Positions 1,182-58,860 of a stretch of DNA of 64,000 nucleotides are shown piece after piece; positions within the stretch are counted from its first letter, which is position 1, and every line of letters begins with the position of its first letter. The DNA lies in the IMG/VR virus record IMGVR_UViG_3300031760_000028, positions 1-64,000 of that record. One strand, 5' to 3'. This DNA comes from a virus (taxonomy: Duplodnaviria; Caudoviricetes). The notes under the pieces are model-generated. The model did no database searches, was not told the origin of the DNA, and saw only the letters and a list, made by a program, of their open reading frames with translations. A program made the position numbers and the translations under genes.

Positions 1182-1658
1182 ATGAAAATTATTTCATGTG
1201 AATATGATGAAAAAACTGGGCGGACAGTCGCAAAATTAGGTACTGAATTAGGTATCTTTATAGGACAGTCTTTTTTTAATAAAGAAAAAGATCCTTTGCG
1301 CCCTTCTCGATTAATAGGCGGACAGTTAGCTGAAAATAACGCTTATCAACGTTATTATCAACAAATATTAAAAAATCAAAAGCAAGAATTGAAAGGGCTG
1401 AATCGTTTACTTGCCGCAATGCCAGATAATATACAAGGTAAGAAATACGCGAAAAATTTATATAATACAATTAAAACAGAAATTAGCGAAACTAAATGGA
1501 CTCTTATTGAATTACAAGAAAGACGCAGTCAAATTATTGAAGGTAGAGCTATATATATTCGCTCCCGTACAATAGATAAAGAGGAGCGCGCACAGATGTT
1601 ACAATCATTAGGTGATAGTTTAGCCTCTTTATCAAATATAAATAAGGACAAAGATTAA
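1182..1658 (+). CDS. Hypothetical protein (158 aa)
   Basis: AGGAGA RBS and own promoter; helical/coiled-coil C-terminal half; no motif recognised. Confidence 0.8.
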   Translation: MKIISCEYDEKTGRTVAKLGTELGIFIGQSFFNKEKDPLRPSRLIGGQLAENNAYQRYYQQILKNQKQELKGLNRLLAAMPDNIQGKKYAKNLYNTIKTEISETKWTLIELQERRSQIIEGRAIYIRSRTIDKEERAQMLQSLGDSLASLSNINKDKD

Positions 1659-1685
1659 TAATTTACCTCTCCTATTTTTGATATA
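1646..1685 (+). promoter_or_regulatory. Putative class II (non-sigmaA) promoter before phoH-holin-endolysin
   Basis: GGAC 1646, ATAA at +12, TTTTG-ATATA at +35; same geometry as four other sites. Confidence 0.6.
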
Positions 1686-1724
1686 TTATATATTTATAAT
1701 ATTTTAAGATAGGAGAGATTTTTT
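1667..1724 (+). terminator. Long hairpin with U-tract that also occludes the phoH RBS
   Basis: CTCTCCTAT (1667-1675) / ATAGGAGAG (1709-1717); inner ATATTATA / TATAATAT (1683-1690 / 1695-1702); followed by ATTTTTT just before ATG 1726. Confidence 0.55.
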
Positions 1725-1725
1725 C

Positions 1726-2973
1726 ATGTACTTTTACGATACTTGCACCTTATTAAAAAAATATAACGAAATTTTTAAACGTATTCATGATGAATCTTTT
1801 GTTATAAGTAATTTAACGCTGATGGAATTAGAAAATATAAAGACTTCAAAGAATAAAGATAATGAAGTTAAATATAAAGCTAAGAAAGTAAGTCAGCTAT
1901 TAAATTATTATTATGGGCAATACGAGTGTATTAATTATGAAAAAGAGTGGGATCGTATATATATTGACTCAAATCCAGTTCTCTTAGATAATAATGATAC
2001 TCGTATAGTTATTTCTGCCTTCGTATATTCAGATGCTCACCCTGATGTTATTTTTGTTACTGATGATGTGAATTGTAACAATATCGCGCGAAGTCTAGGG
2101 TTAACAACTAATGTACTAACACAATTTCATAATATCAATATTAATACGGGCTATTTAGTTCGCACTTGTTTTTCAGAAAATGAAATGAATGATATTTACG
2201 ACCGCATTGAAAATAATGATAATTTTGGTTTATTAGAAAATCAATATTTAATGGTTCAACAAGATAATAATATTATAGATAGTTTTGTATACACAAAAGG
2301 GAAAATGCGGAGAGTTCCTTTTCAGAGTTGCAATTCTAAAGAATTTGGAGAAGTTAAGCCTTTAGACGCTTTCCAAAAAATTGCAATTCATTCCTTAAAG
2401 AATAATAAATTAACCATGTTAAGAGGGGCGGCGGGAACCGGTAAATCGCTCTTAGGGTTGGGGTATTTATTTGAATGTCTTGAAAGTAATAAAATTGATA
2501 AGATTATTATTTTTTGTAATACTGTTGCGACAAAAAGTTCTGCTAAATTAGGGTATTACCCCGGCTCCCGCACAGAAAAACTTCTTGACTCACAAATAGG
2601 TAACTTTTTAGCTTCAAAATTAGGTAGTCGTATTGAAGTGGAGCGTATGATTCATGACGAAACTCTTATTCTTCTTCCAATGTCTGATATTAGAGGATTT
2701 GATACAACAGGTATGAACGCAGGAATTTATATCACAGAAGCGCAAAATCTTGATATAGAACTAATGAAGCTCGCGCTACAGCGAATTGGAGAAGATGCAA
2801 TTTGTATCCTCGATGGAGATAGCGAGACACAGGTTGATTTAGATATTTATTCTGGAGAGAATAATGGTATGAGAAGAGTATCTGAAGTATTTTCGGGACA
2901 GCCTTTTTATGGAGAAGTGACCTTACCAATTTGTCATAGATCAACAATAGCTGCTATTGCTGATAAAATGTAA
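1726..2973 (+). CDS. phoH: PIN-domain + PhoH ATPase fusion (PhoH2-like)
   Basis: N-terminal PIN motifs YDTCTLL, NNDTRI, FVTDDVN; Walker A GAAGTGKS; PhoH motifs RG..TEAQN and ILDGDSETQVDL. Confidence 0.88.
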   Translation: MYFYDTCTLLKKYNEIFKRIHDESFVISNLTLMELENIKTSKNKDNEVKYKAKKVSQLLNYYYGQYECINYEKEWDRIYIDSNPVLLDNNDTRIVISAFVYSDAHPDVIFVTDDVNCNNIARSLGLTTNVLTQFHNININTGYLVRTCFSENEMNDIYDRIENNDNFGLLENQYLMVQQDNNIIDSFVYTKGKMRRVPFQSCNSKEFGEVKPLDAFQKIAIHSLKNNKLTMLRGAAGTGKSLLGLGYLFECLESNKIDKIIIFCNTVATKSSAKLGYYPGSRTEKLLDSQIGNFLASKLGSRIEVERMIHDETLILLPMSDIRGFDTTGMNAGIYITEAQNLDIELMKLALQRIGEDAICILDGDSETQVDLDIYSGENNGMRRVSEVFSGQPFYGEVTLPICHRSTIAAIADKM

Positions 2974-3000
2974 ATTTAAAAATAAAGGAGGATAAAAGAT

Positions 3001-3405
3001 ATGGGTTTTTTAACTTTTATTAAACAATATTGGTTTTTAATTATCATAGCTATTGCAATTACGAGTGATATTACAATCATGATTTATCAGTGGCTAAAAA
3101 AACCAACTGAAGAACAGCTTGATAAAGTAAAGGAATGGCTTGTGTTTGCAGTAGCAGACGCAGAAAAATATCTAGGCAGTGGTACTGGTCAGATGAAGCT
3201 TAGATATGTTTATGATATGTTTGTTACGAAGTTCCCTGCTATTGCAGTATTTCTTTCTTTTGAACAGTTTTCAAAGATGGTAGATGGAGCACTTGATAAA
3301 TTTAATGAACTAATCAAAACTAATAATAATATTAAAGACTTTTACACCGAGCAAACTGTGACTCCCATTGAACAAGAGGAGGTACAAAAAGATGAAGAAA
3401 TCTGA
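3001..3405 (+). CDS. Holin, LL-H-like family
   Basis: N-terminal TM segment; KEWLVFAVADAEKYLGSGTGQMKLRYVYD signature; directly upstream of the endolysin. Confidence 0.8.
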   Translation: MGFLTFIKQYWFLIIIAIAITSDITIMIYQWLKKPTEEQLDKVKEWLVFAVADAEKYLGSGTGQMKLRYVYDMFVTKFPAIAVFLSFEQFSKMVDGALDKFNELIKTNNNIKDFYTEQTVTPIEQEEVQKDEEI

Positions 3406-4378: not shown

Positions 4379-4388
4379 ATCTAATATA

Positions 4389-4424
4389 AGAGGGTTTCAT
4401 ATATATGAAACCCTCTATTTTTTT
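4389..4424 (+). terminator. Intrinsic terminator after endolysin
   Basis: AGAGGGTTTCAT-ATAT-ATGAAACCCTCT (12-bp stem) followed by a T-run. Confidence 0.85.
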
Positions 4425-4451
4425 GACTTTTTTAAAAAATTTTTATATTAT
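4423..4451 (+). promoter_or_regulatory. sigmaA-type promoter (upstream tandem promoter of gyrB)
   Basis: TTGACT-17-TATTAT. Confidence 0.6.
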
Positions 4452-4513
4452 ATTATATTAAGAAAGAATTAAGAAATTATGCAATAACTAGAATTGCAGA
4501 ATCTTCCCATAAT

Positions 4514-4542
4514 TTGACAAAAAATAAAAAATATGATATAAT
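4514..4542 (+). promoter_or_regulatory. sigmaA-type promoter of gyrB
   Basis: TTGACA-17-TATAAT with extended TG. Confidence 0.88.
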
Positions 4543-4572
4543 TTATATATAATAAAATAAGGAGAGAAAATA

Positions 4573-6507: not shown

Positions 6508-6509
6508 AA

Positions 6510-9770: not shown

Positions 9771-9786
9771 CTCCTCTTTATTTTTA
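9759..9786 (+). terminator. Intrinsic terminator of topoisomerase operon
   Basis: GAGGAGC-ATTA-GCTCCTC followed by TTTATTTTTT. Confidence 0.75.
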
Positions 9787-9798
9787 AAGGAGGCTATT

Positions 9799-13422: not shown

Positions 13423-13602
13423 AATATCTGAAAATTTTTGATATAATATATACATAATAAAGCATAAAATAAACAAAGAAAAAATTTGAAATATCTGAAA
13501 AATTTTGATATAATATATGTATAATAAAAAAGATATAAAAAAATAAATAAAGAAAAAAATTTGAAATATCTGAAAAATTTTGATATAATATATGTATAAT
13601 AA
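13419..13602 (+). repeat. Three tandem copies of a promoter unit (period 67 and 75 bp)
   Basis: TTGAAATATCTGAAAA(A/T)TTTTGATATAATATAT(A/G)(C/T)ATAATAAA at 13419, 13486 and 13561; each is TTGAAA-17-TATAAT with extended TG and A-tracts upstream. Confidence 0.92.
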
Positions 13603-13671
13603 AGATGTTGTACAAATGCAATGTCTTATTAATAAATAAAAAATTTTTAATATATAAAAGGAGAAAGTTCA

Positions 13672-14010
13672 ATGAAAGAGAACACAAAGATCGTATTTAA
13701 TTACATTAAGGAACATGAGGCAGATAATATTACAGCATCTGACATCGCAGAGAAGACAGGTCTTCCAGTTAAGTCAGTTAACGGAATCATCACAAGTGCG
13801 CTGATTGGAACAGGTAAGGCTAAGGAGTCTAAGGGTTATGTACAGAGAGTTGCAGGTTATGTAACATCTGTAAATGATGAGGGTGTAGAGCTTACAAAGG
13901 AAGCTAAGTTTATTAAGCTTACAGAGAGAGGTCAGGCTGCAACAGTAGAGTCTATCGAAGCAGATGAAATGGCTGCTCTTCAGGCTAAGCTTGCTGCAAA
14001 GAATGCGTAA
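13672..14010 (+). CDS. Putative winged-helix DNA-binding protein, probably highly expressed
   Basis: ITASDIAEKTGLPVKSVNGIITS helix-turn-helix then a beta-wing; strong AAG/GAG/CTT/GGT codon bias. Confidence 0.7.
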   Translation: MKENTKIVFNYIKEHEADNITASDIAEKTGLPVKSVNGIITSALIGTGKAKESKGYVQRVAGYVTSVNDEGVELTKEAKFIKLTERGQAATVESIEADEMAALQAKLAAKNA

Positions 14011-16394: not shown

Positions 16395-16757
16395 ATGGCA
16401 GATGAAAGAAAAGATATTTTTATTGACACAGTAGAAAATTTATTTACAAAGTACGCATTTGAAGAAAGTATCCCACAGGAAGCTATTGAGTTTTTTGAAG
16501 ATTATAAGAAAGGTAAAACTTCAAAGAAAGAAGTAACAGATAAAGGTATTAATATTCTTAATGCACTTAGAGATATAGATGACTGGATTACTGCAAAGGC
16601 GCTTGGTGAACAACTTGATATTTCAGGACGTTCGGTATCAGGCACAATGCGCAAGCTCGTTGAAGATGGATTTGTAGAGAAGCGCGCAGGAAATCCCGCA
16701 GCATATAAAATTACTGATAAAGGTATTAACTTTCAGCCAGAAATAGCAGAAAGTTGA
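16395..16757 (+). CDS. Winged-helix transcriptional regulator (MarR/TrmB-like fold)
   Basis: ITAKALGEQLDISGRSVSGTMRKLVEDGFVEK...YKITDKG. Confidence 0.8.
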   Translation: MADERKDIFIDTVENLFTKYAFEESIPQEAIEFFEDYKKGKTSKKEVTDKGINILNALRDIDDWITAKALGEQLDISGRSVSGTMRKLVEDGFVEKRAGNPAAYKITDKGINFQPEIAES

Positions 16758-27645: not shown

Positions 27646-30157
27646 ATGAAAAGATTTAGTCCTCATAATCATACAGAAATGTCGAACTTCCGTTTACTTG
27701 ACTCAATTAATAAGCTTGAAGATTTAGTAAAAAGAGGTATAGATATAGGATTAGCGGGATTAGCTATTACAGACCATGAAACAATAGCTAATTCTGTTCG
27801 TATTTGCCAACTTCAAGAAAAATATCCTGATTTTAAAATTGCAATAGGTAATGAGATATATTTAACTGATACAAGAGATAAAAGTCAGAAATATTATCAC
27901 TTTATTTTAATTGCAAAGGATGCAGAAGGTCATCGACAGTTGCGCGAACTCAGTTCACAGGCATGGTTAAACAGCTTTTATGATAAAGGAATTGAAAGAG
28001 TTCCTACATTAAAGAGCGAACTTAAAGATATAGTTGACCGCAATCCAGGACATTTAATTGCAACCTCCGCTTGTATAGGTGGGGAGCTATCTTCAAATAT
28101 ATTAAGTCTTTTAAATGCGCGAACAACTGGGGATAAAAACGGTGAAGTTGTAGCTTATAATAATATTATTAATTTTATTGATTTTTGTATAAAATTATTT
28201 AAAGATGATTTTTATATAGAGATAGCACCTGGTGCAAGCAAAGAACAGGTTGCCGCAAATAGAATGCTTGTAACTATTGCAAGAAAATATGGATTCAAAA
28301 TAGTTATAGGTGATGACTCTCACTATTTAAGAAAAGAAGATAGATTTGTACATAAAGCATATCTTAACTCAAAAGAAGGAGATAGAGAAGTTGATGCATT
28401 TTATCAGTATGCATATTTACATGATGAAGAAGATTGTATAAAAGATTTAGCCCCAACATTCAAAGAGGATATACAAGCAACAGAGCTTTATTATCAGGTT
28501 TTATGTGCTAACAGTATGGATATGTTTAATAAAATAGAAATGTATGATATTCGTCATGCACAGACTATTCCATCTGTTGATGTTAAAGATTATCCTAAAA
28601 AAGAAAATTGTGGGATCGGCAAGCAGTTCCCAATATTAAGAGAAATGTATGTCTCTGATGATAAATATGAGAGATATTGGGTTAATGAATGTGTTCATAA
28701 GTTATATCAGTTAGAAAAAAATAATAACACATATTTTTCTGAACTTGAGCACGAAGCAAAAGTAAAGAAAACGATAGGAGAAAAGCTTGGTACAAATATC
28801 TTTAAGTATCCTATCACTCTTCAGCATTATATTGATATGATGTGGGATTGCGGAAGCTTAGTTGGAGCGGGAAGAGGTTCATCCTGTGCTGGATTGAATC
28901 ATTATCTTCTTGGTGTAACTCAGCTTGACCCTATTAAATGGAATCTTCCGTTCTTTAGATATTTGAACGTTGATAGATTAGAGCTTCCTGACATCGATCT
29001 CGACCTTTGTCCAAGCAAGCGTCCGCTCATCATGAAGAAGATTAAAGCGGAAAGAAGTCAGAAATTTGCGGAAGGTGTTAATCCAGAACTTGGAGCAACC
29101 TTTGTGACGACATTCGGAACAGAAACCGCAAAGTCAGCTATTCAAACTGCTTGCCGCGGGTATAGAAGTACAGAATATCCTGATGGTATTGATTCAGATA
29201 TAGGCACATATCTTGCGTCATTAGTTCCAGTAGAAAGAGGATTTAATTGGACAATCGCAGATATGGTTGAAGGAAATCCTGATAAAGGTCGTCAGCCAGT
29301 ATCATTATTTATTAATGAAGTAAATCAATATCCAGGTTTGCTAGACATTATAAAAGGTATTGAAGGTCTTGTTAAGTCAAGGGGTATTCATGCATCAGGT
29401 GTTATTATGTTTGATGAAGATCCATTTGAGTTTGGATGTTTTATGAAGGCGCCAAATGGTGAGGTAGTAACACAGTATGACCTTCATGATTGTGAAGCTG
29501 CGGGAATGACAAAATATGACTTTCTTTTAACTTCTGTGCAAGATATGTTATGTCAATCCATTAAGTTCTTACAAGAGGATGGAAAACTTCCGCAAGATAT
29601 GACACTTCGTGAAGTGTATGACAAGTATCTTCATCCTGAAGTACTTGATATAGAAGATAAAGCAACATGGGATAATATAGATAAAGCAAAAATATTAGCT
29701 TGCTTCCAGTTTGATAGTGATATTGGTAGCCAGGGTATTAAAAAGGTACAACCGCACGATATTCTTGAATTAAGTAATACAAATGGTCTTATTCGTCTTA
29801 TGGCTCCGGATGGAGAAGAAAATCCGATGGACAAATATATGAGATTTAAACGCAATCCAGGTGAATGGGATAGAGAAATGATGCAATATGGTCTTACAGA
29901 AGAAGAGCAGATGGCGTTTAGAAAATATCTTAAAGTTTCATTTGGTATTGGTATATCACAGGAACAATTAATGAAGGCGCTAATGGATGATGATATTTGC
30001 GGATTTAGTCTTAAAGATGCAAATGCCGCACGTAAGATTATAGGTAAAAAGCAGATGTCGAAAATTCCTGAACTGCGAACACAAATAAAAGAGCAGGCTA
30101 AAAGTGACGCAGTAGGAAGATATGTGTGGGATGCCATCGCGCGACCGCAATTAGGGT
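27646..30157 (+). CDS. dnaE: DNA polymerase III alpha (DnaE), exon 1
   Basis: PHP motifs HNH, TDHE, GNE, DSH; GRGS; catalytic PDIDLD and KYDFL; stops abruptly at ...RPQLG just before the conserved Y-x-F-x-x-x-H motif. Confidence 0.93.
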
Positions 30158-31306
30158 AAACGAAGAAACTTGCCCTTAAACACCTTTTCCGCTTATCAGC
30201 GGGGTATTTAAAACTTTGGTCAAAGTTAATTAAATGCTAACGGGGAAAACTAAAATAACAATAGAGATATAAAAAATATCCTTGTTGTTATCATGTCAAT
30301 CCCGTGGGAAAGAATAAAGGATATGATAACAATAATATAATATTGGAGGTAGATTAAATGTATTATATTTATTGTTACACAAATAAAATAAATAATCATA
30401 AATATGTAGGTCAAACAAATAACTTAAAAAGAAGAATTAGAGAACACAGTTCAGCAGCTTTTAATCCAAATGCAAGTTCTTATAATGATTTAATTCATAA
30501 AAAAATTAGAGAATACGGGGAAGATAATTTTCAAATAGATATTCTTGAAAAAGGTTATACAAATGATATAAATATAATAAATGAAAAAGAACAATATTGG
30601 GTTGAAAAAATGAATTCTTACTGTGGTAATGGTCAGGGATATAATTCAGATCATGGCGGATGTAATAAAAACCATAGTAAAAAATTAACTAATGAACAAA
30701 TAATTGAAATAAAAAATAAATTAAAACAAGGAATATCTTTTATAGATATTGAAAAAGAATATAATATTAGTTCAAGTTTTATTTCAAGTATTAATCACGG
30801 AAACTATTTCTATGATGATAGAGAATCTTATCCATTAAGCAAATATTATAAAGAGGATAAAGATTATGATGAACTCATAGATTTATTATTAAATTCTTCT
30901 TTAACATTAAATGATATAGCTAAACAATTAAATATAAGTTATGCAACAATTAAAAAAATTAATGCAGGAACTTTAAGAAAAGGTTTATATCCAGATTACC
31001 CAATTAGAAAGATAACCGCAAATGAACAGAGAGCTAATAAAATAAAAGACCTACTTTTAACAACAACTTATACAAATAAAGAGATTGCAAAAATCGTTAA
31101 TTCTTCAGAAGAAACAGTAAGAAGAATTAATGTTGGACAAACTTTTAAAGATAATAATTTATCATATCCTTTAAGAAACCTGTAACGACTATCCCGAGTG
31201 AGATTGGGAGTACAACTGCTATTGATACGCAGTTGGAAATGGGTGTTCTATAATGAAATATTATAGTAAAAGATAGTCTACACCATTGGAAACAATGGAT
31301 AATGTG
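30158..31306 (+). ncRNA. Group I intron (IA-like, with P7.1/P7.2 extension), 1149 nt, in dnaE
   Basis: 5' exon ends GGGU with P1 U-G pair to UUGCCC; P3 AACACC/GGUGUU; P4 CGGGGA/UCCCG; R CUGUAACGACUA; S AAGAUAGUCU; P7.2 CAACUGC/GCAGUUG; P8 CUAUAAU/AUUAUAG; P9 CCAUUG-GAAA-CAAUGG; terminal G at 31306. Splicing restores the frame (GGG T|AC AGT TTT = G-Y-S-F). Confidence 0.92.
30358..31185 (+). CDS. Intron-encoded GIY-YIG homing endonuclease with C-terminal HTH-like repeats
   Basis: YYIYCYTNKINNHKYVGQT..RRIREH..EKEQYW..GYN; repeated I..IN.G helix units; GGAGG RBS; stop codon overlaps the intron R element. Confidence 0.88.
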   Translation: MYYIYCYTNKINNHKYVGQTNNLKRRIREHSSAAFNPNASSYNDLIHKKIREYGEDNFQIDILEKGYTNDINIINEKEQYWVEKMNSYCGNGQGYNSDHGGCNKNHSKKLTNEQIIEIKNKLKQGISFIDIEKEYNISSSFISSINHGNYFYDDRESYPLSKYYKEDKDYDELIDLLLNSSLTLNDIAKQLNISYATIKKINAGTLRKGLYPDYPIRKITANEQRANKIKDLLLTTTYTNKEIAKIVNSSEETVRRINVGQTFKDNNLSYPLRNL

Positions 31307-32730
31307 ACAGTTTTTCAGATATTCATGCTCTTGCATATAGTTTCATAGGTTATCAAACAGCATATATTGCAACTAAATGGAGTCCTATATATTGGGATAC
31401 AGCAGTATTAGTTGTAAATAGTGGAAGTCTTGAAGAAAATGAAATTGATGATGATTTAGATTTAGAAGCAAAAGAAAAGAATTCAGATTATGCAAAAATA
31501 GCAAAGGCACTTGGTGAAATTATTGACCATGGTATTAAGGTATCTCTTGTAGATATTAATAAGTCCGATTATGGATTTAAGCCAGATGTAGCAAACAACC
31601 AAATTTTATTTGGTTTAAAGGCATTAAGTGGCGTAAATGCGGAAATGATAGATATTATTAAGGCTGGTAGACCTTATGCCAATATTAAAGACTTCATGGC
31701 TCATATCAAGATTAAAAAGCCAGCTATGGTTTCATTAATTAAGGGTGGCGCATTTGATAATATTGCAGAACCGCTTGGTTGCGTGGATAAAGAAAAAGCA
31801 AGATTTTATAATATGGCATATTATTTATATCAAGCGAGTGAACCAAAACAGAAGTTAACTCTTCAGAACCTTAATGGTCTTATTCAAGAAGAAATGATTC
31901 CAGATAGTCTTGATTTTGAGAAGAGAGTCTATTATTTTAATAAGCATCTTGGTCAACATAAATGGATAGATAGAAATACAAATATAGAGTATTATGTTAT
32001 AGTTCCAAAAGAAGCATATGATTTTTATGCCCAGCATTTTAATATAGATTATATTGAAGTAAAAGATGGAGTTCCAATTATTCAGCAGAAAATATGGAAA
32101 AAAGAAATTTATGATGTTTATATGGATAAGGTTAGAACTTGGTTAAAGGAACATCATGATGAGACATTATTTGAATATAATTCTATATTATTTAAAAAGA
32201 CATGGAAAAAGTATACAAAAAAGAATAATCTTTCTGCATGGGAGATGGAATCATTATGTTTCTATTATCACGAACATGAGTTAAAAAATCTCGATAAAAA
32301 TAAGTATGGTATTAAGAATTTCTTTGATTATTCAACAGAACCGACTGTGGAAAGAACATTTAATCGCGGCGGGCGCAAGTTACCTATCTACGAATTATTT
32401 AGAATTGCAGGGACTGTTATTAGTAAGAATGATACACGTCATACAGTATCACTTTTAACAACAGAAGGTGTTGTTCCTGTTAAATTCACTAGAGATATGT
32501 ATGCGATGTATAAGCGTCAGTTAAGTGAAGTTCAATCAGACGGTACAAAGAAAGTAACCGAAAAAGGTTGGTTTACACGTGGAACTATGCTTATTATAAA
32601 TGGATTTAGAAAGGACGATATGTTCGTAGCTAAGAAGTATGCAAATACACAAGGACATACAATTTATAAGATAGATGAAATAGATGAATATGGTAATGTT
32701 AAAATTGAGAATGAAAGAGGAGCAGCGTAA
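31307..32730 (+). CDS. dnaE: DNA polymerase III alpha (DnaE), exon 2 (spliced protein 1311 aa)
   Basis: In frame after splicing: YSFSDIHALAYSFIGYQTAYIATKWSPIYW...VDINKS..FGLKALSGV..; continuous with ORF 31645-32730 (offset 336 nt); C-terminal OB-like IAGTVI. Confidence 0.92.
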
Positions 32731-33289: not shown

Positions 33290-33329
33290 GGTCTTTTTAC
33301 TTTAATATTATTATAAATTTTTTCATATA
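33290..33329 (+). promoter_or_regulatory. Putative class II promoter before nrdD
   Basis: GGTC 33290, TTAA at +12, TTTC-ATATA at +35. Confidence 0.6.
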
Positions 33330-33370
33330 TATTATGACACTAAAATATATAATTAATTGTGGAGGTAACT

Positions 33371-35527
33371 ATGAAAAAAATTATAAAACGAGATAGTAGA
33401 GAGGTTGATTTTGATAAAAGCAAAATCAAAGATGCGGTATTAAAAGCTTTTAAATCCGTAGACGGTAAAGTGTCAGCCTACGCCATTACTAAAGCTGAAA
33501 ATATTGCAGATTTTATTGAAAAGAGTATACAATTTCAAGACAAAAATTTAACAGTGGAAGAAATTCAAGATTATGTAGAAAAAGGCTTAATGTCTATTAA
33601 GCGCAAAGATGTTGCAAAAGCATATATTCTTTATAGAAAGCAAAGGGATTATGCACGAAAGAATACTATTGATGATACAATAGACGAAATTATTGCTAAC
33701 TCTAATAGCTATTGGACAAGTGAAAATTCTAATAAAGATTCTAAACTAGCAACTACTCAAAGAGATTATATCGCAGGAGCAGTGTCTACTGACGCAACAA
33801 GACGAAGACTTCTACCCCCAGATATTGTGAAAGCACATGATGAAGGGCTTATACATTTTCATGATGCAGATTATTTTATTCAGCCTATTCATAACTGTTG
33901 TTTAATTAATCTTGAAGATATGCTACAAAATGGTACAATTATTAGTAAAACAAAAATTGATAAGCCAAAGAAATTCTCAACTGCTTGTAATATTGCGACT
34001 CAGATCATAGCGCAAGTTGCAAGCTCGCAATACGGTGGTCAATCAATTAGTCTAGCACATTTGTCTCCATTTATTAAAGAGACAAGAGAGAAGTATCAGA
34101 AGGAATTCCCATCTTTTACTAAAGAACAGATTGAACATTTAGTCAATATGGATATTGAGAGTGGTGTGCAAACAATTCAATATCAAATATTAACATTAAT
34201 GACTACTAATGGGCAGACTCCATTCATAACAATTTATATGAATTTAGCAGAAGCGCCCGAAGGACAGGAAAGAGATGACTTAGCTAAATGTATAGAAGAA
34301 GTATTAAAGCAAAGAATACTAGGGGTAAAAAATGAGGCGGGAGTATATATTGCTCCAACCTTTCCTAAATTAATTTATGCTTTAGATGATTTTAATATAT
34401 ACCCAAATAGCAAATATTTTTATTTAACTAAAATAGCCGCAGAGTGCGTTTCTAAAAGACTTGTTCCAGACTTTATCTCTAATAAAGTTCAACGAGAATT
34501 AAAACAAGGTCAGACATATACTTGCATGGGGTGTAGAAGTTTCTTGACAAACGATAGAACCACAAAAAACTATGCTAAAGCATTAAATTATAAAGAGGGA
34601 CAGCAAAAATTCTATGGTCGATTCAATCAAGGAGTGGTTACTATTAACTTAGCCGATATTGCTTTATCTTCCCATAAGGATATAAATAAATTTTGGGAAA
34701 TTTTTGATGAAAGATTAGAATTATGTCATAGAGCTTTGCAATGCCGCCACAAAAGATTAAAAGGAACTTTATCAGATATTGCTCCAGTTTTATGGCAGCA
34801 CGGGGCTTTAGCAAGATTAAAAAGTGGAGAAGCTATTGATGAATTACTTTATCATGGTTATTCTACTATTTCTCTTGGATACGCCGCTTTATATGAATGT
34901 GTATATTATATGACTGGGAAGTCTCATACAGACGAAGAGGCTAAGCCATTTGCTATTGAAATTATGCAGCACTTAAATGATGCTTGTAATAAGTGGAAAG
35001 CAGAAGAAGATATTGATTATTCTGTTTATGGAAGTCCTATTGAATCTGTAACTTATAAATTTGCGAAATGCTTAAGAAAAAGATTTGGTATTATTCCAGA
35101 AATTACAGACCATGATTACATAACTAATTCATACCATGTAAACGTAAGAGAAAAAATTGATGCTTTTACCAAACTAGCTAAAGAAGCCGAGTTTCAAAAG
35201 CTAAGTCCAGGTGGCGCAATAAGTTATGCAGAAATACCAAATATGCAGCACAATCTTGATGCAGTTATTACATTAATACAGTTTATCTATGAGAATATCA
35301 TGTATGCTGAATTAAATACAAAAGCTGACTATTGCCATGTATGTGGATATAACGGTGAAATTCAAGTTAAAGGTACTCAAGGACATTATTATTGGGAATG
35401 TCCTAATTGCGGCAATAGAGATCAAAGTAAAATGACAGTCATAAGGAGAACTTGTGGATACATAGGCGGAAATTATTGGAATCAAGGTCGAACTGAAGAA
35501 ATTGCAGAGAGAGTATTGCATTTATAA
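33371..35527 (+). CDS. nrdD: Anaerobic (class III) ribonucleotide reductase with ATP-cone
   Basis: ATP-cone IIKRDSREVDFDKSKI; HFHD; HNCCL; MGCRSFL; Zn site CHVC/CPNC; glycyl-radical motif RTCGYIG. GGAGGT RBS supports ATG 33371. Confidence 0.95.
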   Translation: MKKIIKRDSREVDFDKSKIKDAVLKAFKSVDGKVSAYAITKAENIADFIEKSIQFQDKNLTVEEIQDYVEKGLMSIKRKDVAKAYILYRKQRDYARKNTIDDTIDEIIANSNSYWTSENSNKDSKLATTQRDYIAGAVSTDATRRRLLPPDIVKAHDEGLIHFHDADYFIQPIHNCCLINLEDMLQNGTIISKTKIDKPKKFSTACNIATQIIAQVASSQYGGQSISLAHLSPFIKETREKYQKEFPSFTKEQIEHLVNMDIESGVQTIQYQILTLMTTNGQTPFITIYMNLAEAPEGQERDDLAKCIEEVLKQRILGVKNEAGVYIAPTFPKLIYALDDFNIYPNSKYFYLTKIAAECVSKRLVPDFISNKVQRELKQGQTYTCMGCRSFLTNDRTTKNYAKALNYKEGQQKFYGRFNQGVVTINLADIALSSHKDINKFWEIFDERLELCHRALQCRHKRLKGTLSDIAPVLWQHGALARLKSGEAIDELLYHGYSTISLGYAALYECVYYMTGKSHTDEEAKPFAIEIMQHLNDACNKWKAEEDIDYSVYGSPIESVTYKFAKCLRKRFGIIPEITDHDYITNSYHVNVREKIDAFTKLAKEAEFQKLSPGGAISYAEIPNMQHNLDAVITLIQFIYENIMYAELNTKADYCHVCGYNGEIQVKGTQGHYYWECPNCGNRDQSKMTVIRRTCGYIGGNYWNQGRTEEIAERVLHL

Positions 35528-35972: not shown

Positions 35973-36274
35973 AGGGGGAGAAAGTAATGATTAATTTAAT
36001 AAGTTTCATCAGACCTTTCTCTATTGAACAAAAAATATTTATTAGAAACAGCGCGGTTCCTGATAAAATTAATATAGTTTCAACGAATTTATCTAAATAT
36101 TCAGAAACTATTTTTGAACTTATTGAACAATATAAAGAAGAGCAACCAGACTTAACTTTATACGGACCGGTAAATTATTGTGATAAATTGCGACAGCAAA
36201 TTGTTACAGAGAGTTTATCTAAATATAATAGAATGATACAAGTGACTTTAAAAAGTGAAAATGAGGTAGAATAA
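35966..36274 (+). CDS. Hypothetical protein (start may be ATG 35987)
   Basis: ORF track; GGGGGAG RBS before the second Met. Confidence 0.7.
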   Translation: MLEGEKVMINLISFIRPFSIEQKIFIRNSAVPDKINIVSTNLSKYSETIFELIEQYKEEQPDLTLYGPVNYCDKLRQQIVTESLSKYNRMIQVTLKSENEVE

Positions 36275-41670: not shown

Positions 41671-41706
41671 GGTGTATATACCTCCTTTTATCTCATTATA
41701 ATAAAT

Positions 41707-41730
41707 TAAAGGGAACGAATGTTCCCTTTA
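41707..41730 (-). terminator. Hairpin after 41728-42183
   Basis: TAAAGGGAAC-GAAT-GTTCCCTTTA. Confidence 0.7.
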
Positions 41731-42183: not shown

Positions 42184-42226
42184 ATGGTTGCTCCTCCTTG
42201 TTATATATGATACTTTTCTCTCTCTA

Positions 42227-42266
42227 TAGTTAAAAAAACTCTTTGTTTAATTAAGCTAGTCAGTCC
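42227..42266 (-). promoter_or_regulatory. Putative class II promoter
   Basis: Minus strand GGAC (42266), TTAA at +12, T-run then AACTATA at +35. Confidence 0.5.
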
Positions 42267-48036: not shown

Positions 48037-48073
48037 ATCTTTTGGCAACCTCCTTTTCTCTCTTATTATAAAA

Positions 48074-48113
48074 TATATAAAAAAACTACAAACATATTTA
48101 AAAAGAAATGACC
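48074..48113 (-). promoter_or_regulatory. Putative class II promoter before tail-tip gene
   Basis: Minus strand GGTC (48113), TTAA at +12, T-run-ATATA at +35; begins at the U-tract of the tape measure terminator. Confidence 0.62.
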
Positions 48114-56457: not shown

Positions 56458-56482
56458 ATCCTTGTACCTCCTTTATAAAATT

Positions 56483-56517
56483 AAAAACGCTCTTATTATA
56501 TATAATAATAAGAGCGT
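56483..56517 (-). terminator. Hairpin with U-tract whose loop is the class II -10 element
   Basis: ACGCTCTTATTA (56487-56498) / TAATAAGAGCGT (56506-56517), loop TATATAA; minus-strand T-run follows. Confidence 0.75.
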
Positions 56518-56538
56518 CTTATTTAAAGTGTTTTGTCC
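56499..56538 (-). promoter_or_regulatory. Putative class II promoter of tape measure gene
   Basis: Minus strand GGAC (56538), TTAA at +12, ATATA at +35. Confidence 0.62.
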
Positions 56539-56561
56539 ACCAATCTTTTATTTTATAACTT

Positions 56562-57083
56562 CTACTTGTCCTTTTGTGAATTACTTAAAGAATCCACCGC
56601 ATTATTAATTATTGTTTTAAAATCTTCTTCATTTAAATATTTTACAGCATCTTCTATTTTCTCGATTAAATTATTAAAAGTATAGGCAAATGATGTTCTT
56701 ACTTTAATATTCAAATCTAATTGCTTTTCCACAAAATTCATTAATTCCGTGAATTCTGCTTCTGGAATATGAGAAGTAACTGCACCTATAATACCATTAC
56801 TATTTAAAATATCGAATAACTGCATTGGATTTGCTTTTTCTTCATCTGTAAATTCAAGATTTGTATAAAAATATACTATATATAAATATACATAAGCATC
56901 TAAACGCAATGTATTATAAATATTACTATCTGCCGCCTGCTGTAAAGCTATTTGCACTAAAGATATTTTATCTTCAATAGGTAAATACTTTTTAATGGTA
57001 ATTGCTTTTCCTCCCGGAAGAGTAATAGATGTAACTGTCTTATCAATAGTAAGATTTAATGAACTAAAAGTAATATTATCCAT
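56562..57083 (-). CDS. Hypothetical protein upstream of tape measure (possible tail assembly chaperone)
   Basis: Position between tail tube region and TMP; AAGGAG RBS; own sigmaA promoter. Confidence 0.6.
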   Translation of the reverse strand: MDNITFSSLNLTIDKTVTSITLPGGKAITIKKYLPIEDKISLVQIALQQAADSNIYNTLRLDAYVYLYIVYFYTNLEFTDEEKANPMQLFDILNSNGIIGAVTSHIPEAEFTELMNFVEKQLDLNIKVRTSFAYTFNNLIEKIEDAVKYLNEEDFKTIINNAVDSLSNSQKDK

Positions 57084-57121
57084 TGATTATTTTTCTCCTT
57101 TTTTCTTTTCTTCTTTTTTAT

Positions 57122-57150
57122 ATTATAACAAAAATTTTTTTAATTGTCAA
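57122..57150 (-). promoter_or_regulatory. sigmaA-type promoter inside the tail module
   Basis: Minus strand TTGACA (57150-57145)-17-TATAAT (57127-57122), extended TG. Confidence 0.85.
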
Positions 57151-57156
57151 GAAAGT

Positions 57157-58797
57157 CTAATTATTTTTCATGTAGGCAAAAGGATTAATATGACCTTCAA
57201 TAGAAGCAGAATTGATAGCATTATTTAATTCTTCTACTCGGCGGTTATGGTTATAAAAAGCATTTCCTTTGTTTAAATCATTCCACCATCCATTTCTTCC
57301 CGGAATAGAAAAAACTACTCCAGAGTTGGCAGTCATTGAACTGGTTGTATTCAAAGCTTTATTACTCTCCAATATCTTTTTCACAATATCCCACATACTT
57401 ATAAGATTACCATTTACAAACATAAAAGTCGCAAAATCTTCAATGCCTCTTGCGCCGAATAAATATAAAGTAGCTCTAGTGAATAAAGCGTTTTGTAAAG
57501 CCTGTACTGCTGGAGTTAGGTCTTCCGCCTCTTGCCTCATTTCAGAAGGAGCTCCATTAGATGACCATGCCAAAGTATTGTATGCTAAATATTTTAATCT
57601 ATCTTTTGAAGATTCTGTACTTATCAATAGGTTAAAAGCCGTATTTAAAGGTAAACTACCACCAGTTACTAAGTTTCTAGGAGTAATATTATTTTTCTTT
57701 CCTAACTCTAAAGTTTTATATGCTTTATTTGATAGTCCAATATCTAAAGTAATTTCTCCATAATTCGCACCAAAAATTTGAGAAAGTGAAAGTTGTACAT
57801 TATTAAATTTAACATCCGCTTTACCTTGCTTTTTCGAACCTATTTTTTCTTTACCAGCTCTTGTATAACTACCTGACACGCCAGATGAAATTCTCTCAAC
57901 AGAAGTTTGACCAGTAGATTTAATATTTTCCACTGTATTTTTAACTGTTACTGCTGATGTTTCAACGGCCGCTTCAGTTATCATCATTGCTGCGGACTCT
58001 CCTAAAACTGTAGAGAAGAAATTTCTATCTATACTATCTTTTAAATATTGTATTGTAATTGGTCGAGGGTCTTTAGGATTTAATGTACCTGATGCATCTC
58101 CCGTTGTTAATTTTGCAGCAATTTTATGTAAAGCGTTAGCCGCTTGTTGAAGCTGTTGTCCTTTTAAGGTAGAGCCATCAAGATTTAGACTTTGAAGTTT
58201 TACAGATAATTCTTTTCCAATATTATACAAACTAAGATCGTTATTAGTCTTTTGTAATTTCCCATTTACTTTATAAATCCCCCCAGCAGACCTAATTGCT
58301 GCGGCCATTGCTGATTCTTCACACCCTTCTAAAACTTCTATTGCTTCAGCAATATTTGCTAGTAATGAATCAAAACCTTTCCACGGTTTTGCGTTAATAT
58401 CAAGTTGCTTTTTTAAAGAGTCTGCCGAAGACTCCCAATCAATATTTTTCTGTATTTCTATTAATTTTTGAGCCATTGCAGAATTTAATCCTTTTGAAAA
58501 ATGCTCTTGTAATACTTCATTTATTTTATCAATATTCCCATTATCTTTAAATAATTGTGAAACGGCTGCTCGGTCTTGACTAGAAACATTTTCTATAAAT
58601 AATTCTTTATACTGTGTCTCTAGAGCTTCTTTAGCGTCTCTTCGTAGACTGTTAAAATTATCCACTAATGTTTTTACTTTAACAGGCTTCCCGCCATTCT
58701 TTATTGCACCTATTTGTTTTTGATGCAAATGAATATAAAAACCACCATATTCTATATAATTCAAATTTTTATAGTAATCTGTTTGAATTTCACTCAA
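57157..58797 (-). CDS. Uncharacterised 546-aa protein with a PD-(D/E)xK-like motif
   Basis: TTG start with AAGGGG RBS; LGE...GKADV...IGLSNKAY arrangement resembles a restriction-endonuclease-like core. Confidence 0.65.
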   Translation of the reverse strand: MSEIQTDYYKNLNYIEYGGFYIHLHQKQIGAIKNGGKPVKVKTLVDNFNSLRRDAKEALETQYKELFIENVSSQDRAAVSQLFKDNGNIDKINEVLQEHFSKGLNSAMAQKLIEIQKNIDWESSADSLKKQLDINAKPWKGFDSLLANIAEAIEVLEGCEESAMAAAIRSAGGIYKVNGKLQKTNNDLSLYNIGKELSVKLQSLNLDGSTLKGQQLQQAANALHKIAAKLTTGDASGTLNPKDPRPITIQYLKDSIDRNFFSTVLGESAAMMITEAAVETSAVTVKNTVENIKSTGQTSVERISSGVSGSYTRAGKEKIGSKKQGKADVKFNNVQLSLSQIFGANYGEITLDIGLSNKAYKTLELGKKNNITPRNLVTGGSLPLNTAFNLLISTESSKDRLKYLAYNTLAWSSNGAPSEMRQEAEDLTPAVQALQNALFTRATLYLFGARGIEDFATFMFVNGNLISMWDIVKKILESNKALNTTSSMTANSGVVFSIPGRNGWWNDLNKGNAFYNHNRRVEELNNAINSASIEGHINPFAYMKNN

Positions 58798-58821
58798 AAA
58801 TAAACACCCCTTCTTATATAT

Positions 58822-58860
58822 AAAAAAAATGCGGAAAGTGCTTAAATAAGCACCCCCCGC
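58822..58860 (-). terminator. Intrinsic terminator after major tail protein
   Basis: Minus strand GCGGGGGGTGCTTA-TT-TAAGCACTTTCCGC followed by ATTTTTTTT. Confidence 0.8.

What the first reader, a model, noticed from the sequence alone, without database searches (positions are those of the whole stretch)
1646..58857. Second promoter class with fixed geometry, likely read by a phage sigma factor
Seen: five intergenic sites share GG(A/T)C, then (T/A)TAA exactly 12 nt later, then a T-rich run and ATATA (AACTATA at one site) exactly 35 nt after the first G. They are 1646(+, phoH-lysis), 33290(+, nrdD), 42266(-), 48113(-, tail tip) and 56538(-, tape measure). Two degenerate copies are 13617(+, TGCA-N8-TTAA, ATATA +35) and about 58857(-, ATATA +36). 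None has a TTGACA -35. Established: large Firmicute phages (e.g. SPO1) use phage sigma factors, and sporulation sigmas read CATA-type -10 boxes. Inference: a late/middle regulon whose sigma is encoded outside this window.
Basis: partly seen in the sequence, partly recalled or inferred. Interest (0 to 1): 0.72.

Follow-up and report, generated by a model that had tools for sequence, protein, structure and literature searches.

The report
Phage-specific late promoter class confirmed
An uncultured cattle-gut phage and hundreds of its relatives carry a second, phage-specific promoter-like signal in front of tail, lysis, nucleotide and homing-endonuclease genes. A conserved sigma-like DNA-binding protein made from an ordinary host-type promoter is the best candidate to read it.

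Summary
GG(A/T)C, (T/A)TAA at +12, a T-run and ATATA at +35 occur at all five stated sites. The strict pattern occurs 4 times in the window against 0.01 expected. The contig (82,870 bp; the window is its first 64 kb) holds three more candidates beyond the window: 71505(-), 72410(-) and 69359(-). Every site lies 72-91 nt before a start codon. The two "degenerate" copies (13617, 58857) are not members, and 58857 is a terminator.

The same geometry recurs in two distant relatives and in 60 of 80 related IMG/VR loci, at orthologous places (tape measure, tail-fibre operon, nrdD, HNH endonuclease). Columns not used to pick the sites are conserved: A+4, AA+14/15, A+35. The roughly 30 ordinary promoters are TTGACA-N17-TATAAT; this class lacks the -35 G.

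The "phage sigma" reading is partly supported. Outside the window, ORF 75496-76647(-) matches PHROG 5767 "sigma factor" (5e-49). It sits behind a canonical host-type promoter and heads the arm that carries the motif (53 sites downstream against 3 upstream in 36 loci). Only a sigma-region-4-like HTH and a zinc ribbon are detectable, with no sigma-2 domain. No RNA data exist, so start sites and timing are inferred.

The scan noted this motif before, on this same genome.

The parts
1646..1686 (+). Class C site before the PIN-PhoH / holin / amidase cassette. GGAC 1646-1649, ATAA 1658-1661, T-run 1675-1679, GATATA 1680-1685. Start codon at 1726 (+80).
   Evidence: sequence and exact pattern. (PhoH, endolysin, holin). 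PWM trained on relatives scores 23.1, above every shuffle.
1667..1720 (+). Hairpin CTCTCCTAT...ATAGGAGAG followed by U6. It pairs the PhoH Shine-Dalgarno sequence with a segment upstream of the putative -10, so only RNA started inside the hairpin would have a free ribosome site.
   Evidence: -21.9 kcal/mol, z -3.9, 0 of 200 shuffles fold as well.
33290..33330 (+). Class C site before nrdD (33371-35527). GGTC, TTAA at +12, T6, CATATA.
   Evidence: NrdD identified. Leave-one-out rank falls directly behind the training sites. An equivalent site lies before nrdD of relative G002 at 36217.
42225..42266 (-). Class C site (weakest -10: AACTATA) before the 151-aa / 564-aa / 737-aa tail-fibre-type operon. 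The GGAC overlaps the stop codon of the 67-aa gene.
   Evidence: loose pattern. Leave-one-out rank 60 of 165,622. Equivalent sites lie before the orthologous operon in G001 (206) and G002 (58852).
48073..48113 (-). Class C site before the 1848-aa tail protein. GGTC starts directly after the U-tract of the tape-measure terminator.
   Evidence: Best PWM score among the window's sites. Terminator 48155-48118.
56498..56538 (-). Class C site before the 2766-aa tape measure gene. The putative -10 TATATA lies in the loop and upper stem of a terminator hairpin (56520-56484).
   Evidence: (-22.1 kcal/mol, z -4.8). The same arrangement stands before the tape measure gene in G001 (80665) and, as a GGCC variant, in G002 (71599).
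13617..13657 (+). Not a member: it has no GGNC, and its TATATA lies only about 23 nt before the start codon.
   Evidence: Absent from all PWM top lists. Sequence.
58817..58866 (-). It is an intrinsic terminator after the major tail gene (compound hairpin plus U8), followed by TATATATA. Not a member of the class.
   Evidence: 19-pair stem. Strain contigs carry indels at 58815 and 58821. No PWM score.
57122..57150 (-). Canonical host-type promoter TTGACA-N17(TG)-TATAAT in the tail arm, listed for contrast with class C.
   Evidence: (12 of 12 matches).
63990..64000 (-). Placeholder at the window's end for parts that lie beyond it, given in contig coordinates, which continue the window's numbering. 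(a) Class C site 71465-71505(-) before GIY-YIG homing endonuclease 71433-70858. (b) Class C site 72370-72410(-) before HNH homing endonuclease 72330-71605. (c) Candidate class C site 69319-69359(-) upstream of the portal region. (d) Gene 75496-76647(-) for the 383-aa candidate factor: PHROG 5767 'sigma factor', a sigma-4/LuxR-like HTH at about residues 231-331, and a C-terminal four-cysteine zinc ribbon. It stands behind TTGACA-N17-TATAAT at 76691.
   Evidence: (a). (b). (c). (d).

Best explanation
The sites are a phage-specific class of promoters for genes expressed after the early phase. They are not recognised through the usual sigma-A -35 contact.

The signal has three conserved parts at fixed distances:
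- GGNCA at positions 0 to +4, about -46 to -42 if the A at +35 is the -11 base.
- (T)TAA at +12 to +15, about -34 to -31.
- A T-run followed by N-A-T-A-T-type bases at +29 to +40, which is an A/T-rich -10 region.

Host RNA polymerase is directed to these sites by a phage-encoded factor made early. The best candidate is the 383-aa protein encoded at 75496-76647(-). It is transcribed from a canonical host-type promoter and has a sigma-region-4-like helix-turn-helix followed by a zinc ribbon. Whether it replaces sigma-A (a very divergent sigma) or works beside it (an activator or sigma appropriator bound at -46/-33) is open.

The sites sit directly behind or inside terminators, so each large tail or lysis unit is started afresh. 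At 1646 and 48113 the leader of read-through RNA can pair with the ribosome site, so only RNA started at the class C site would be translated well.

Shown: the motif, its geometry, its conservation, its placement, and the factor gene with its promoter. Inferred: promoter activity, timing, and the link between factor and motif.
For: Non-chance and fixed geometry:
- 4 exact matches against 0.01 expected.
- Offset peak at d=35.
- Leave-one-out PWM ranks.
- In 17.5 kb laid with four strain runs there are 8 indels. None lies inside the three motif spans, while indels occur in the neighbouring terminator loop and in the non-member 58857.

Placement:
- All 8 sites point at a gene, with the start codon 72-91 nt downstream.
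- The downstream genes are PhoH/holin/amidase, NrdD, tape measure, tail proteins and two homing endonucleases.

Distinct from host-type promoters:
- About 30 TTGACA-N17-TATAAT sites exist in the contig.
- Class C has G at the -33-equivalent column in 3 of 22 sites and 1 of 53 sites.
- Class C sites are not among the listed sigma-70 consensus matches in 41.5-59 kb.

Conservation:
- The GGNC->T-run offset peaks at 29-31 in G000 (14 against 1.2), G001 (19 against 2.9) and G002 (8 against 0.9).
- In 80 IMG/VR loci the count is 235 against about 20 per three offsets, and 60 of 80 loci carry a site.
- SPO1 (0) and Phass-1 (2 against 1.6) show no peak.
- Columns not used for selection are conserved in 53 non-redundant sites: A+4 48/53, A+14 43/53, A+15 45/53, A+35 46/53.
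- Sites occupy orthologous places before the tape measure gene, the tail-fibre operon, nrdD and the HNH gene.

Factor:
- PHROG 5767 'sigma factor', E 5e-49.
- ESM features nearest to GerE/LuxR (0.93) and Sigma70_r4 clusters (0.80-0.81, below the tool's 0.9 line, so a lead only).
- In the AF2 model (pLDDT 86), residues 231-331 give sigma-H as best match (3mzy, Z 7.1, 76 residues, rmsd 3.2), then SigB, WhiG and CnrH at Z 6.1-6.3.
- Four invariant cysteines.
- 37 of 54 relatives have TTGANN-N16-18-TATAAT within 160 nt upstream, and none has a class C site there.
- In 36 loci, class C sites lie 53 times downstream on the factor's strand and 3 times upstream.
Against: - No transcript data exist. 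No run listed as holding the sequence is RNA, so no start site, timing or dependence on the factor is shown.
- The factor has no detectable sigma-2 domain or any Pfam/NCBIfam sigma hit. This holds in six-frame searches, for the protein itself and for 98 diverse relatives.
- There is no PDB sequence hit and no Foldseek hit.
- The sigma-4 structural matches have Z about 6-7, which is in the range the tool calls middling.
- Enterococcus phage VRE9_3 has a 46%-identical homologue of the factor but only a weak offset peak (7 against 2.5). G002 has the motif but its 68%-complete contig lacks the factor. Co-occurrence is therefore not strict.
- An upstream element 30 nt before the -10 hexamer is unusually far for a sigma -35 contact.
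- Three of the five window sites score only within the upper range of shuffles when taken singly.
Confidence: 0.55

Rival explanations
1. These are host sigma-A promoters with a weak -35 (TTNAAW, 17-nt spacer to NATATA). They are helped by an ordinary phage activator that binds GGNCA one helical turn upstream, as Mu C or phi29 p4 do. Candidate activators are the winged-helix proteins at 16395-16757 and 13672-14010, or the 383-aa protein acting as a LuxR-type activator. No new sigma is involved.
For: - The distance from TTAA to ATATA is 23 nt from start to start, which is exactly the sigma-70 -35/-10 geometry.
- The T-run plus -10 region closely resembles the spacer and -10 of the contig's canonical promoters: TTTTTGATATAAT against TTTTTGATATATT.
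- GGNCA lies where class I activators and alpha-CTD bind.
- The factor's nearest feature clusters are GerE/LuxR regulators, and no sigma-2 domain is found.
- MarR/TrmB-type winged-helix genes behind canonical promoters exist and are conserved in G002.
Against: - The -35-like box lacks the G that is invariant in this phage's sigma-A promoters.
- The putative -10 often has A rather than T at the hexamer's last position.
- The small winged-helix genes were not found in G001, which has the motif (that contig is incomplete).
- The PHROG family is annotated as sigma factor.
Confidence: 0.3
2. The motif is not a promoter. It is a protein- or RNA-level signal at gene junctions, such as a processing site, an antitermination or terminator-associated element, or a site for a DNA-binding protein unrelated to initiation.
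For: - Three sites adjoin or overlap terminator hairpins (56538, 48113, and the G001 and G002 tape-measure sites).
- A T-rich stretch often precedes GGNC.
- No start sites are known.
Against: - Sites 33290, 42266 and 71505 have no significant structure.
- The conserved downstream half is a T-run plus an A/T hexamer 35-45 nt before the ribosome site, as in promoters.
- The sites stand before free-standing homing-endonuclease genes, which need a promoter of their own.
- Orientation always matches the downstream gene.
- No Rfam family matches.
Confidence: 0.1
3. The match is a chance resemblance among A/T-rich intergenic sequences, picked out after the fact.
For: The genome has 32.6% G+C and its intergenic DNA is full of TATA-like words. 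The pattern was defined from the sites themselves.
Against: - Shuffle expectation is 0.01 against 4 observed.
- Offset peaks appear in four independent data sets.
- Unselected columns are conserved.
- A PWM from other phages recovers the sites.
- Strand and side bias is 53 against 3.
Confidence: 0.02

Closest known systems
Bacillus phage SPO1 sigma cascade (gp28 middle, gp33/gp34 late promoters)
   Same: A large lytic Firmicute phage. Early genes use host sigma-A promoters. A phage factor made early redirects host RNA polymerase to promoters with their own two-box consensus and an A/T-rich -10 (GATATT for gp34, from my own knowledge of the literature).
   Different: hhalign finds no similarity between the 383-aa family and gp28, gp34 or gp2.21 (probability below 1%). 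SPO1 shows none of the GGNC->T-run geometry. Here the upstream box lies about 11 bp further from the -10 than a -35 box, and there is an additional (T)TAA box.
Phage Mu late promoters with activator C (and middle promoter with Mor)
   Same: The promoters have a recognisable -10 but no typical -35, and the activator binds the region overlapping and upstream of -35. Host RNA polymerase holoenzyme is used (abstract of PMC2582627).
   Different: Mu C is a 16.5-kDa dimer in a Gram-negative temperate phage. Here the candidate is a 383-aa protein with a sigma-4-like HTH and a zinc ribbon. The site shows no dyad symmetry, and there are many sites per genome.
Ltr superfamily of late activators of Gram-positive temperate phages (RinA, ArpU, LtrA with Sigma70_r4, LtrB, LtrC)
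   Same: A phage-encoded regulator, in one family with a sigma-region-4-like DNA-binding part. Its gene lies at the border between the early and late clusters, and it switches on late morphogenesis and lysis genes (PMC3753634).
   Different: Ltr proteins are about 15 kDa and act on one promoter upstream of terS through repeats. Here the protein is 383 aa and has no Pfam Sigma70_r4 hit. At least 8 dispersed promoter-like sites share one fixed-geometry motif.
T4 late and middle transcription (gp55/gp33/gp45; MotA/AsiA) and T4 promoter-in-hairpin control of gene e and I-TevI
   Same: An A/T-rich -10-type element without sigma-70 -35 recognition. Homing-endonuclease genes have their own late-type promoters. 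The start lies inside a hairpin that hides the ribosome site in earlier read-through RNA (own knowledge; review PMC2988020 for late transcription).
   Different: T4 late promoters are -10-only (TATAAATA). Here two conserved upstream boxes exist. The MotA box lies at -30, not -46. No gp55, gp33, MotA or AsiA homologue was looked for specifically.

Membership tests
Sigma-70-family sigma factor (for ORF 75496-76647) | Sigma-2 domain (regions 2.1-2.4; Pfam Sigma70_r2) that binds the beta-prime clamp helices and reads the -10 element | tested here: inconclusive
   No PF04542 match in six frames of the contig, G001, G002, Phass-1 or VRE9_3. No match for the protein at E<=10 or for 99 family members. 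The N-terminal 190 residues give only generic helical-hairpin fold matches. Divergent phage sigmas can escape these models.
Sigma-70-family sigma factor (for ORF 75496-76647) | Sigma-4 domain (region 4.1-4.2 helix-turn-helix) | tested here: inconclusive
   No Pfam Sigma70_r4 or r4_2 hit. Residues 231-331 of the pLDDT-86 model match sigma-H 3mzy (Z 7.1, rmsd 3.2, 76 aligned), SigB 8x6g (Z 6.3), WhiG 7lq4 (Z 6.2) and CnrH 4cxf (Z 6.1). ESM features are nearest to GerE (0.93) and Sigma70_r4 (0.80-0.81) clusters.
Sigma-70-family sigma factor (for ORF 75496-76647) | Binds core RNA polymerase and confers promoter specificity | not testable with these tools
   Needs biochemistry or infected-cell pull-downs.
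Housekeeping sigma-A promoter (for the class C sites) | -35 hexamer TTGACA with conserved TTG | tested here: not met
   The column equivalent to -33 is G in 3 of 22 sites and 1 of 53 sites. The consensus is wTTAAw. The contig's canonical promoters all keep TTG.
Housekeeping sigma-A promoter (for the class C sites) | -10 hexamer TATAAT-like (A at position 2, T at position 6), 16-18 nt after the -35 hexamer | tested here: inconclusive
   A at +35 in 46 of 53 sites fits position 2. Position 6 (+39) is A or T about equally. The spacing from TTNAAW to NATATA is 17 nt.
Intrinsic terminator (T-run read as a U-tract) | G+C-rich hairpin directly before the T-run | tested here: not met
   No such hairpin ends at the +28..+33 T-run of 33290, 42266, 48113 or 1646. 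The feature is met only at 58857, which is therefore a terminator and not a member.
T4-type late promoter | A -10-only element with no conserved upstream sequence | tested here: not met
   GGNCA at 0..+4 and AA at +14/+15 are conserved across 53 non-redundant sites.
Activator-dependent promoter of the Mu C / class II type | Recognisable -10, no -35, and a conserved protein site between about -30 and -55 | tested here: met
   The sequence architecture fits. Binding of an activator could not be tested.
Ltr (RinA/ArpU/LtrA-C) late activator system | [quoted passage not shown] | tested here: not met
   The candidate is 383 aa. At least 8 dispersed sites exist, and they carry no repeats. Family features are taken from PMC3753634.

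The most novel reading that the evidence does not exclude
The 383-aa protein founds a very divergent, widespread family of phage sigma factors: more than 6,000 proteins, 1,516 clusters at 50% identity and 534 IMG/VR loci. It would have a sigma-4-like domain, a C-terminal zinc ribbon and an unrecognisable sigma-2. It would read a three-box promoter in which the zinc ribbon or sigma-4 contacts an extra GGNCA element at about -46, one helical turn upstream of a -35-like TTAA. That promoter architecture is not described for any sigma.
Probability: 0.25. Interest if true: 0.8.

Novelty: new variant of a known kind. Interest (0 to 1): 0.6.

Why it matters
Temporal control by phage-specific promoters is known from a handful of model phages. 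For the many large uncultured gut siphoviruses it is unknown.

This work gives three things. The first is a precise, cross-validated promoter model: GGNCA-N7-(T)TAA-N14-T4-5-N-ATAT, about 72-91 nt before the gene in this contig. The second is a map of which genes it precedes. The third is a single strongly conserved candidate regulator expressed from a host-type promoter.

That makes the regulatory switch directly testable with in vitro transcription, EMSA and reporters. It improves operon and timing annotation for hundreds of metagenomic phage genomes. It may also reveal a new way of directing bacterial RNA polymerase, through an element one helical turn upstream of -35 read by a protein that combines a sigma-4-like domain with a zinc ribbon.

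Tried and rejected
- RNA evidence: none of the runs listed as holding the sequence is RNA. All are bovine or gut metagenome DNA.
The 123-kb contig that encodes the identical chaperone protein, and the relatives at about 51-54% identity in that protein, could not be fetched.
- megablast of the tape measure region against GenBank phages found no match.
- Relatives found through the 173-aa pre-tape-measure protein are only 28-46% identical. They do not carry the strict pattern in the fetched loci. The looser geometry test was needed to see the motif there.
- Strict pattern with one mismatch in G001, G002, Phass-1 and VRE9_3: background level apart from one exact match, G001 43606.
- Sigma detection failed in every test: Pfam r2/r4/r4_2 in six frames, Pfam and NCBIfam on the protein, Pfam on 99 relatives, PDB sequence profiles, Foldseek against PDB on two models, BFVD, which returned only uncharacterised homologues, and hhalign against three SPO1 sigma proteins.
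- Rfam gave no family at gathering score anywhere in the contig. The intron-like gaps therefore remain unconfirmed, and no known RNA element overlaps the sites.
- Strain variation: the substitution table is cut to the best-supported rows, all of them in coding sequence. Only the indel table could be used.
- GGWCAAA as a word alone is common in coding sequence and uninformative.
- Sigma-54, ECF, SigB, SigD and sporulation-sigma consensus sequences (from my own knowledge) do not fit the spacing or the boxes.
- Literature searches found no description of this motif or protein family.

Full report
**Material**

The window is bases 1-64000 of an 82,870-bp IMG/VR viral contig. The contig has 32.6% G+C, no end repeats, and a CheckV completeness of 61%. 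DNA runs that hold it are bovine or gut metagenomes.

Plus-strand genes run from about 76.8 kb through the contig end and from base 1 to 37.7 kb. They comprise small early genes, then replication and nucleotide metabolism. Minus-strand genes run from 76.6 kb down to 37.7 kb and are structural.

Tail-protein relatives are large siphoviruses of Enterococcus (EF1, VRE9, H1; about 140 kb), Phass-1, Lactococcus 949-like phages and large Bacillus siphoviruses.

**1. The observation**

The strict pattern GGWC-N8-WTAA-N19-ATATA occurs four times in the window, against 0.01 expected from dinucleotide shuffles. It occurs nowhere else in the contig. Site 42266 fits with AACTATA.

I counted all pairs of GG[AT]C and intergenic ATATA by distance. 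Distance 35 has 5 pairs, and distance 37 (the same sites, ATATATA) has 4. Other distances average about 0.3.

This test turned up a sixth site beyond the window, 71505(-). PWM scans added 72410(-) and a candidate at 69359(-).

In leave-one-out scans, 33290, 48113, 56538 and 71505 rank directly behind the training sites among 165,622 positions. Site 1646 ranks 18th and 42266 ranks 60th.

All sites point at a gene whose start codon lies 72-91 nt from the first G.

The two 'degenerate' copies are not members. Site 13617 lacks GGNC, and its TATATA is only about 23 nt from the start codon. The T-run at 58857 is the U-tract of a 19-pair terminator after the major tail gene. Neither scores with any PWM.

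**2. What the other promoters look like**

Aligned on their -10 hexamers, about 30 intergenic sites are TTGACA (or TTGAAA, TTGATT, TTGTTT)-N17-TATAAT, often with TG. Those in the replication arm seemed at first to lack a -35. They have it inside the 3' end of the upstream gene.

The consensus scanner finds one perfect site of this kind in the tail arm (57150-57122). It does not list the class C sites.

**3. The genes behind the sites**

| Site | Downstream genes |
|---|---|
| 1646 | PIN-PhoH, holin-like, amidase endolysin |
| 33290 | NrdD |
| 42266 | 151-aa, 564-aa and 737-aa tail-type proteins |
| 48113 | 1848-aa tail protein |
| 56538 | 2766-aa tape measure |
| 71505 | GIY-YIG homing endonuclease |
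| 72410 | HNH homing endonuclease |
| 69359 | portal region |

Terminators lie directly before 48113 and after the major tail gene. At 56538 the putative -10 lies inside a terminator hairpin.

At 1646, the segment between GGAC and the -10 pairs with the Shine-Dalgarno sequence (-21.9 kcal/mol, z -3.9). At 48113, the GGUC region and the U/C-rich segment after it pair with the AAAAGGAGG...GCCAAA ribosome-site region in the minimum-energy fold. Transcripts that start inside these structures would have a free ribosome site; read-through RNA would not. This resembles T4 gene e and I-TevI (own knowledge).

**4. Conservation**

Two IMG/VR relatives were read in full. Their pre-tape-measure protein is 41% identical to ours. 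They are G001 (94 kb, read with TAG as a sense codon) and G002 (89 kb).

The distance histogram from GGNC to TTTT-N1-2-W5 (intergenic) peaks at 29-31 in all three genomes. With a filter for a downstream ribosome site, the counts are:

| Genome | Count at 29-31 | Expected per three offsets |
|---|---|---|
| G000 | 14 | 1.2 |
| G001 | 19 | 2.9 |
| G002 | 8 | 0.9 |
| SPO1 | 0 | - |
| Phass-1 | 2 | 1.6 |
| VRE9_3 | 7 | 2.5 |

The sites occupy orthologous places:

| Position | G000 | G001 | G002 |
|---|---|---|---|
| Before the tape measure gene | 56538 | 80665 | 71599 (GGCC variant) |
| Before the tail-fibre operon | 42266 | 206 | 58852 |
| Before the HNH gene | 72410 | 50519 | - |
| Before nrdD | 33290 | - | 36217 |

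Before the tape measure gene, the -10 region lies inside a terminator hairpin in all three genomes.

In 80 further IMG/VR loci (1.18 Mb) fetched through the candidate factor, the same peak stands out. The counts are 80, 99 and 56 at distances 29, 30 and 31, against a median of 5 at the other distances (mean about 7). Sixty of the 80 loci carry at least one site.

In 53 non-redundant sites from these loci, columns that played no part in the selection are conserved. These are A at +4 (48/53), A at +5 (38/53), A at +14 (43/53), A at +15 (45/53) and A at +35 (46/53).

A PWM built from 45 of these foreign sites, leaving out any site more than 70% like a G000 site, recovers all five window sites and the three extra ones among the top 11 positions of the contig.

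Among four strain runs laid on 41.5-59 kb, the complete indel table has 8 entries. None lies in a motif span. Two lie in the 58857 T-run/TATATA region and one in the 48135 terminator loop.

**5. Who reads it**

Six-frame searches with Pfam Sigma70_r2 find nothing in the contig, G001, G002, Phass-1 or VRE9_3. Sigma70_r4 and r4_2 give only sub-threshold helix-turn-helix echoes in a homing endonuclease ORF and a 112-aa ORF.

A PHROG scan of the genes beyond the window gave a lead. ORF 75496-76647(-), 383 aa, matches phrog_5767 'sigma factor' at E 5e-49. GenBank homologues (42% identical) in Enterococcus phages are labelled 'sigma factor' by the same route. The homologue in Brevibacillus phage Sundance is labelled 'luxR family' or 'sigma factor'.

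The family is very large. More than 6,272 proteins match at E<=1e-5. There are 1,516 clusters at 50% identity and 534 loci in IMG/VR.

Independent support for 'sigma' is thin:
- No Pfam, NCBIfam or PDB sequence hit exists for the protein or for 98 diverse relatives.
- hhalign against SPO1 gp28, gp34 and gp2.21 gives probabilities below 1%.
- Foldseek finds nothing.

Positive signs concern only the C-terminal half:
- Protein-language-model features are nearest to GerE/LuxR clusters (0.93). Sigma70_r4 clusters follow at 0.80-0.81, which is below the tool's 0.9 line and so a lead only.
- In a model built from 99 diverse sequences (pLDDT 86), residues 231-331 give sigma-H (3mzy; Z 7.1, rmsd 3.2, 76 residues) as the best of 48,161 chains.
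- SigB, WhiG and CnrH follow at Z 6.1-6.3. All other rows match a generic helical hairpin at residues 131-187. The tool classes these Z values as middling.
- Four cysteines (342, 345, 370, 373) are invariant, which indicates a zinc ribbon.

The genomic logic fits a regulator of class C:
- The gene is the first of the minus arm and sits behind TTGACA-N17-TATAAT.
- In 37 of 54 relatives a near-perfect host-type promoter lies within 160 nt upstream. None has a class C site there.
- In 36 loci with 10 kb on both sides, class C sites lie 53 times downstream on the factor's strand. They lie 3 times in the upstream divergent early region and once on the opposite strand downstream.

Against a strict link: VRE9_3 has a homologue of the factor but hardly any motif, and G002 has the motif on a contig that lacks the factor, though that contig is incomplete.

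**6. Mechanism**

If A(+35) is the -11 base, then (T)TAA lies at -34..-31 and GGNCA at -46..-42. GGNCA is then on the same face of the helix, one turn upstream of a -35 box.

That position fits either of two readings. One is a sigma-like protein with an extra DNA contact; the zinc ribbon follows the sigma-4-like domain and would point upstream. The other is an activator bound next to sigma-A holoenzyme, as in Mu C-dependent late promoters, which have a -10 but no -35 (PMC2582627).

I rate 'a phage-specific post-early promoter class that depends on a phage factor' at about 0.55. Within that, I rate the 383-aa protein as the factor at about 0.4 overall, and as a true sigma at about 0.25.

Winged-helix proteins at 16395-16757 (MarR/TrmB-like) and 13672-14010 are alternative regulators.

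**7. Comparison and novelty**

The closest systems are:
- the SPO1 sigma cascade;
- Mu C/Mor-dependent promoters;
- the Ltr/RinA/ArpU/LtrA late activators of Gram-positive temperate phages (PMC3753634);
- T4 late and middle transcription.

The 'minimal sigma' and gp33-type HTH proteins discussed for jumbo phages (PMC7824862) show that single-HTH factors can recruit RNA polymerase.

None of these shares the motif or a detectable sequence relationship. Three literature searches found no description of this motif or protein family. I therefore file it as a new variant of a known kind: factor-dependent phage promoters.

**8. Limits**

There is no transcript evidence of any kind. Gene calls are my own simple ORF calls. 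Some pattern hits in the pooled loci lie in conserved coding sequence, for example inside the factor gene and at the equivalents of 66708. The contig is incomplete. One tool (look-up of encoding contigs) was closed. An earlier first-stage note of this scan lists the same motif on this genome at seven sites. That agrees with what I found independently, and it is not counted as evidence.

Noticed in passing
contig 66625-66708 (-), beyond the window (L036:2625-2708): The best-scoring class C-like sequence lies inside the 462-aa gene that follows the portal gene. It is followed at +83 by AGGAG-N5-GTG, in frame with that gene. The sequence is conserved in many relatives. This may be an internal promoter plus a nested in-frame start, as in protease/scaffold gene pairs. 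It may also be coding conservation alone.
   Followed up: partly
window 27646-32730: The DNA polymerase gene is split. ORF 27646-30159 and ORF 31645-32730 match successive parts of the same PHROG polymerase families. They are separated by 1.5 kb that holds a GIY-YIG homing endonuclease ORF (30358-31185). This looks like an intron, but Rfam finds no group I intron at gathering score.
   Followed up: partly
contig 69.3-73.9 kb, beyond the window (L036:5300-9900): A dense run of homing-endonuclease genes (HNH 72330-71605, GIY-YIG 71433-70858, endonuclease 73813-73160) and long non-coding gaps. A gene of phrog_15503 is split into a 125-aa and a 78-aa piece around one of them. Terminase-like fragments lie nearby.
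   Followed up: partly
G001 (IMGVR_UViG_3300031867_000025), e.g. L038 and L008: This relative reads TAG as a sense codon. The factor gene has 8 in-frame TAG codons, and the tape measure gene is open only if TAG is read through. Phass-1, a more distant relative, is filed under the 'code 15 clade'. The window's own phage uses the standard code.
   Followed up: partly
G002, L007 and L009 late-gene leaders (e.g. G002 72206, 45128, 55337, 42411): A G+C-rich hairpin of the form GCGGC-N-GGNCC-GCCGC sits about 5-15 nt before the ribosome site of several late genes in these relatives. It is absent from the window's phage.
   Followed up: no
window 41671-41727 and contig 64062-64147 (the latter just beyond the window); also L007, L008, L009: A recurrent leader, (A/T)GAGATAAAAGGAG(G), lies directly before start codons of head and tail genes in several relatives. 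It is longer than a Shine-Dalgarno sequence alone.
   Followed up: no
window 13423-13671: Three tandem, near-identical TTGAAA-N17-(TG)TATAAT promoter units stand in front of a 112-aa helix-turn-helix-like gene (13672-14010). This is far more promoter than any other gene here has. The gene is conserved in G002 at 40% identity.
   Followed up: partly
window 56684-57267: In laid metagenome contigs this bin has 5-60 times the depth of its neighbours (310, 186 and 109 against about 5-20). Many contigs break at 57089-57150, which is the canonical promoter before the 173-aa gene. The promoter segment seems to be shared by many different phage contigs.
   Followed up: no
contig 76648-76797, beyond the window: A divergent pair of perfect host-type promoters lies between the factor gene and the first plus-strand early gene. 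The same layout is seen in G001 and in most of the 54 relatives checked.
   Followed up: partly
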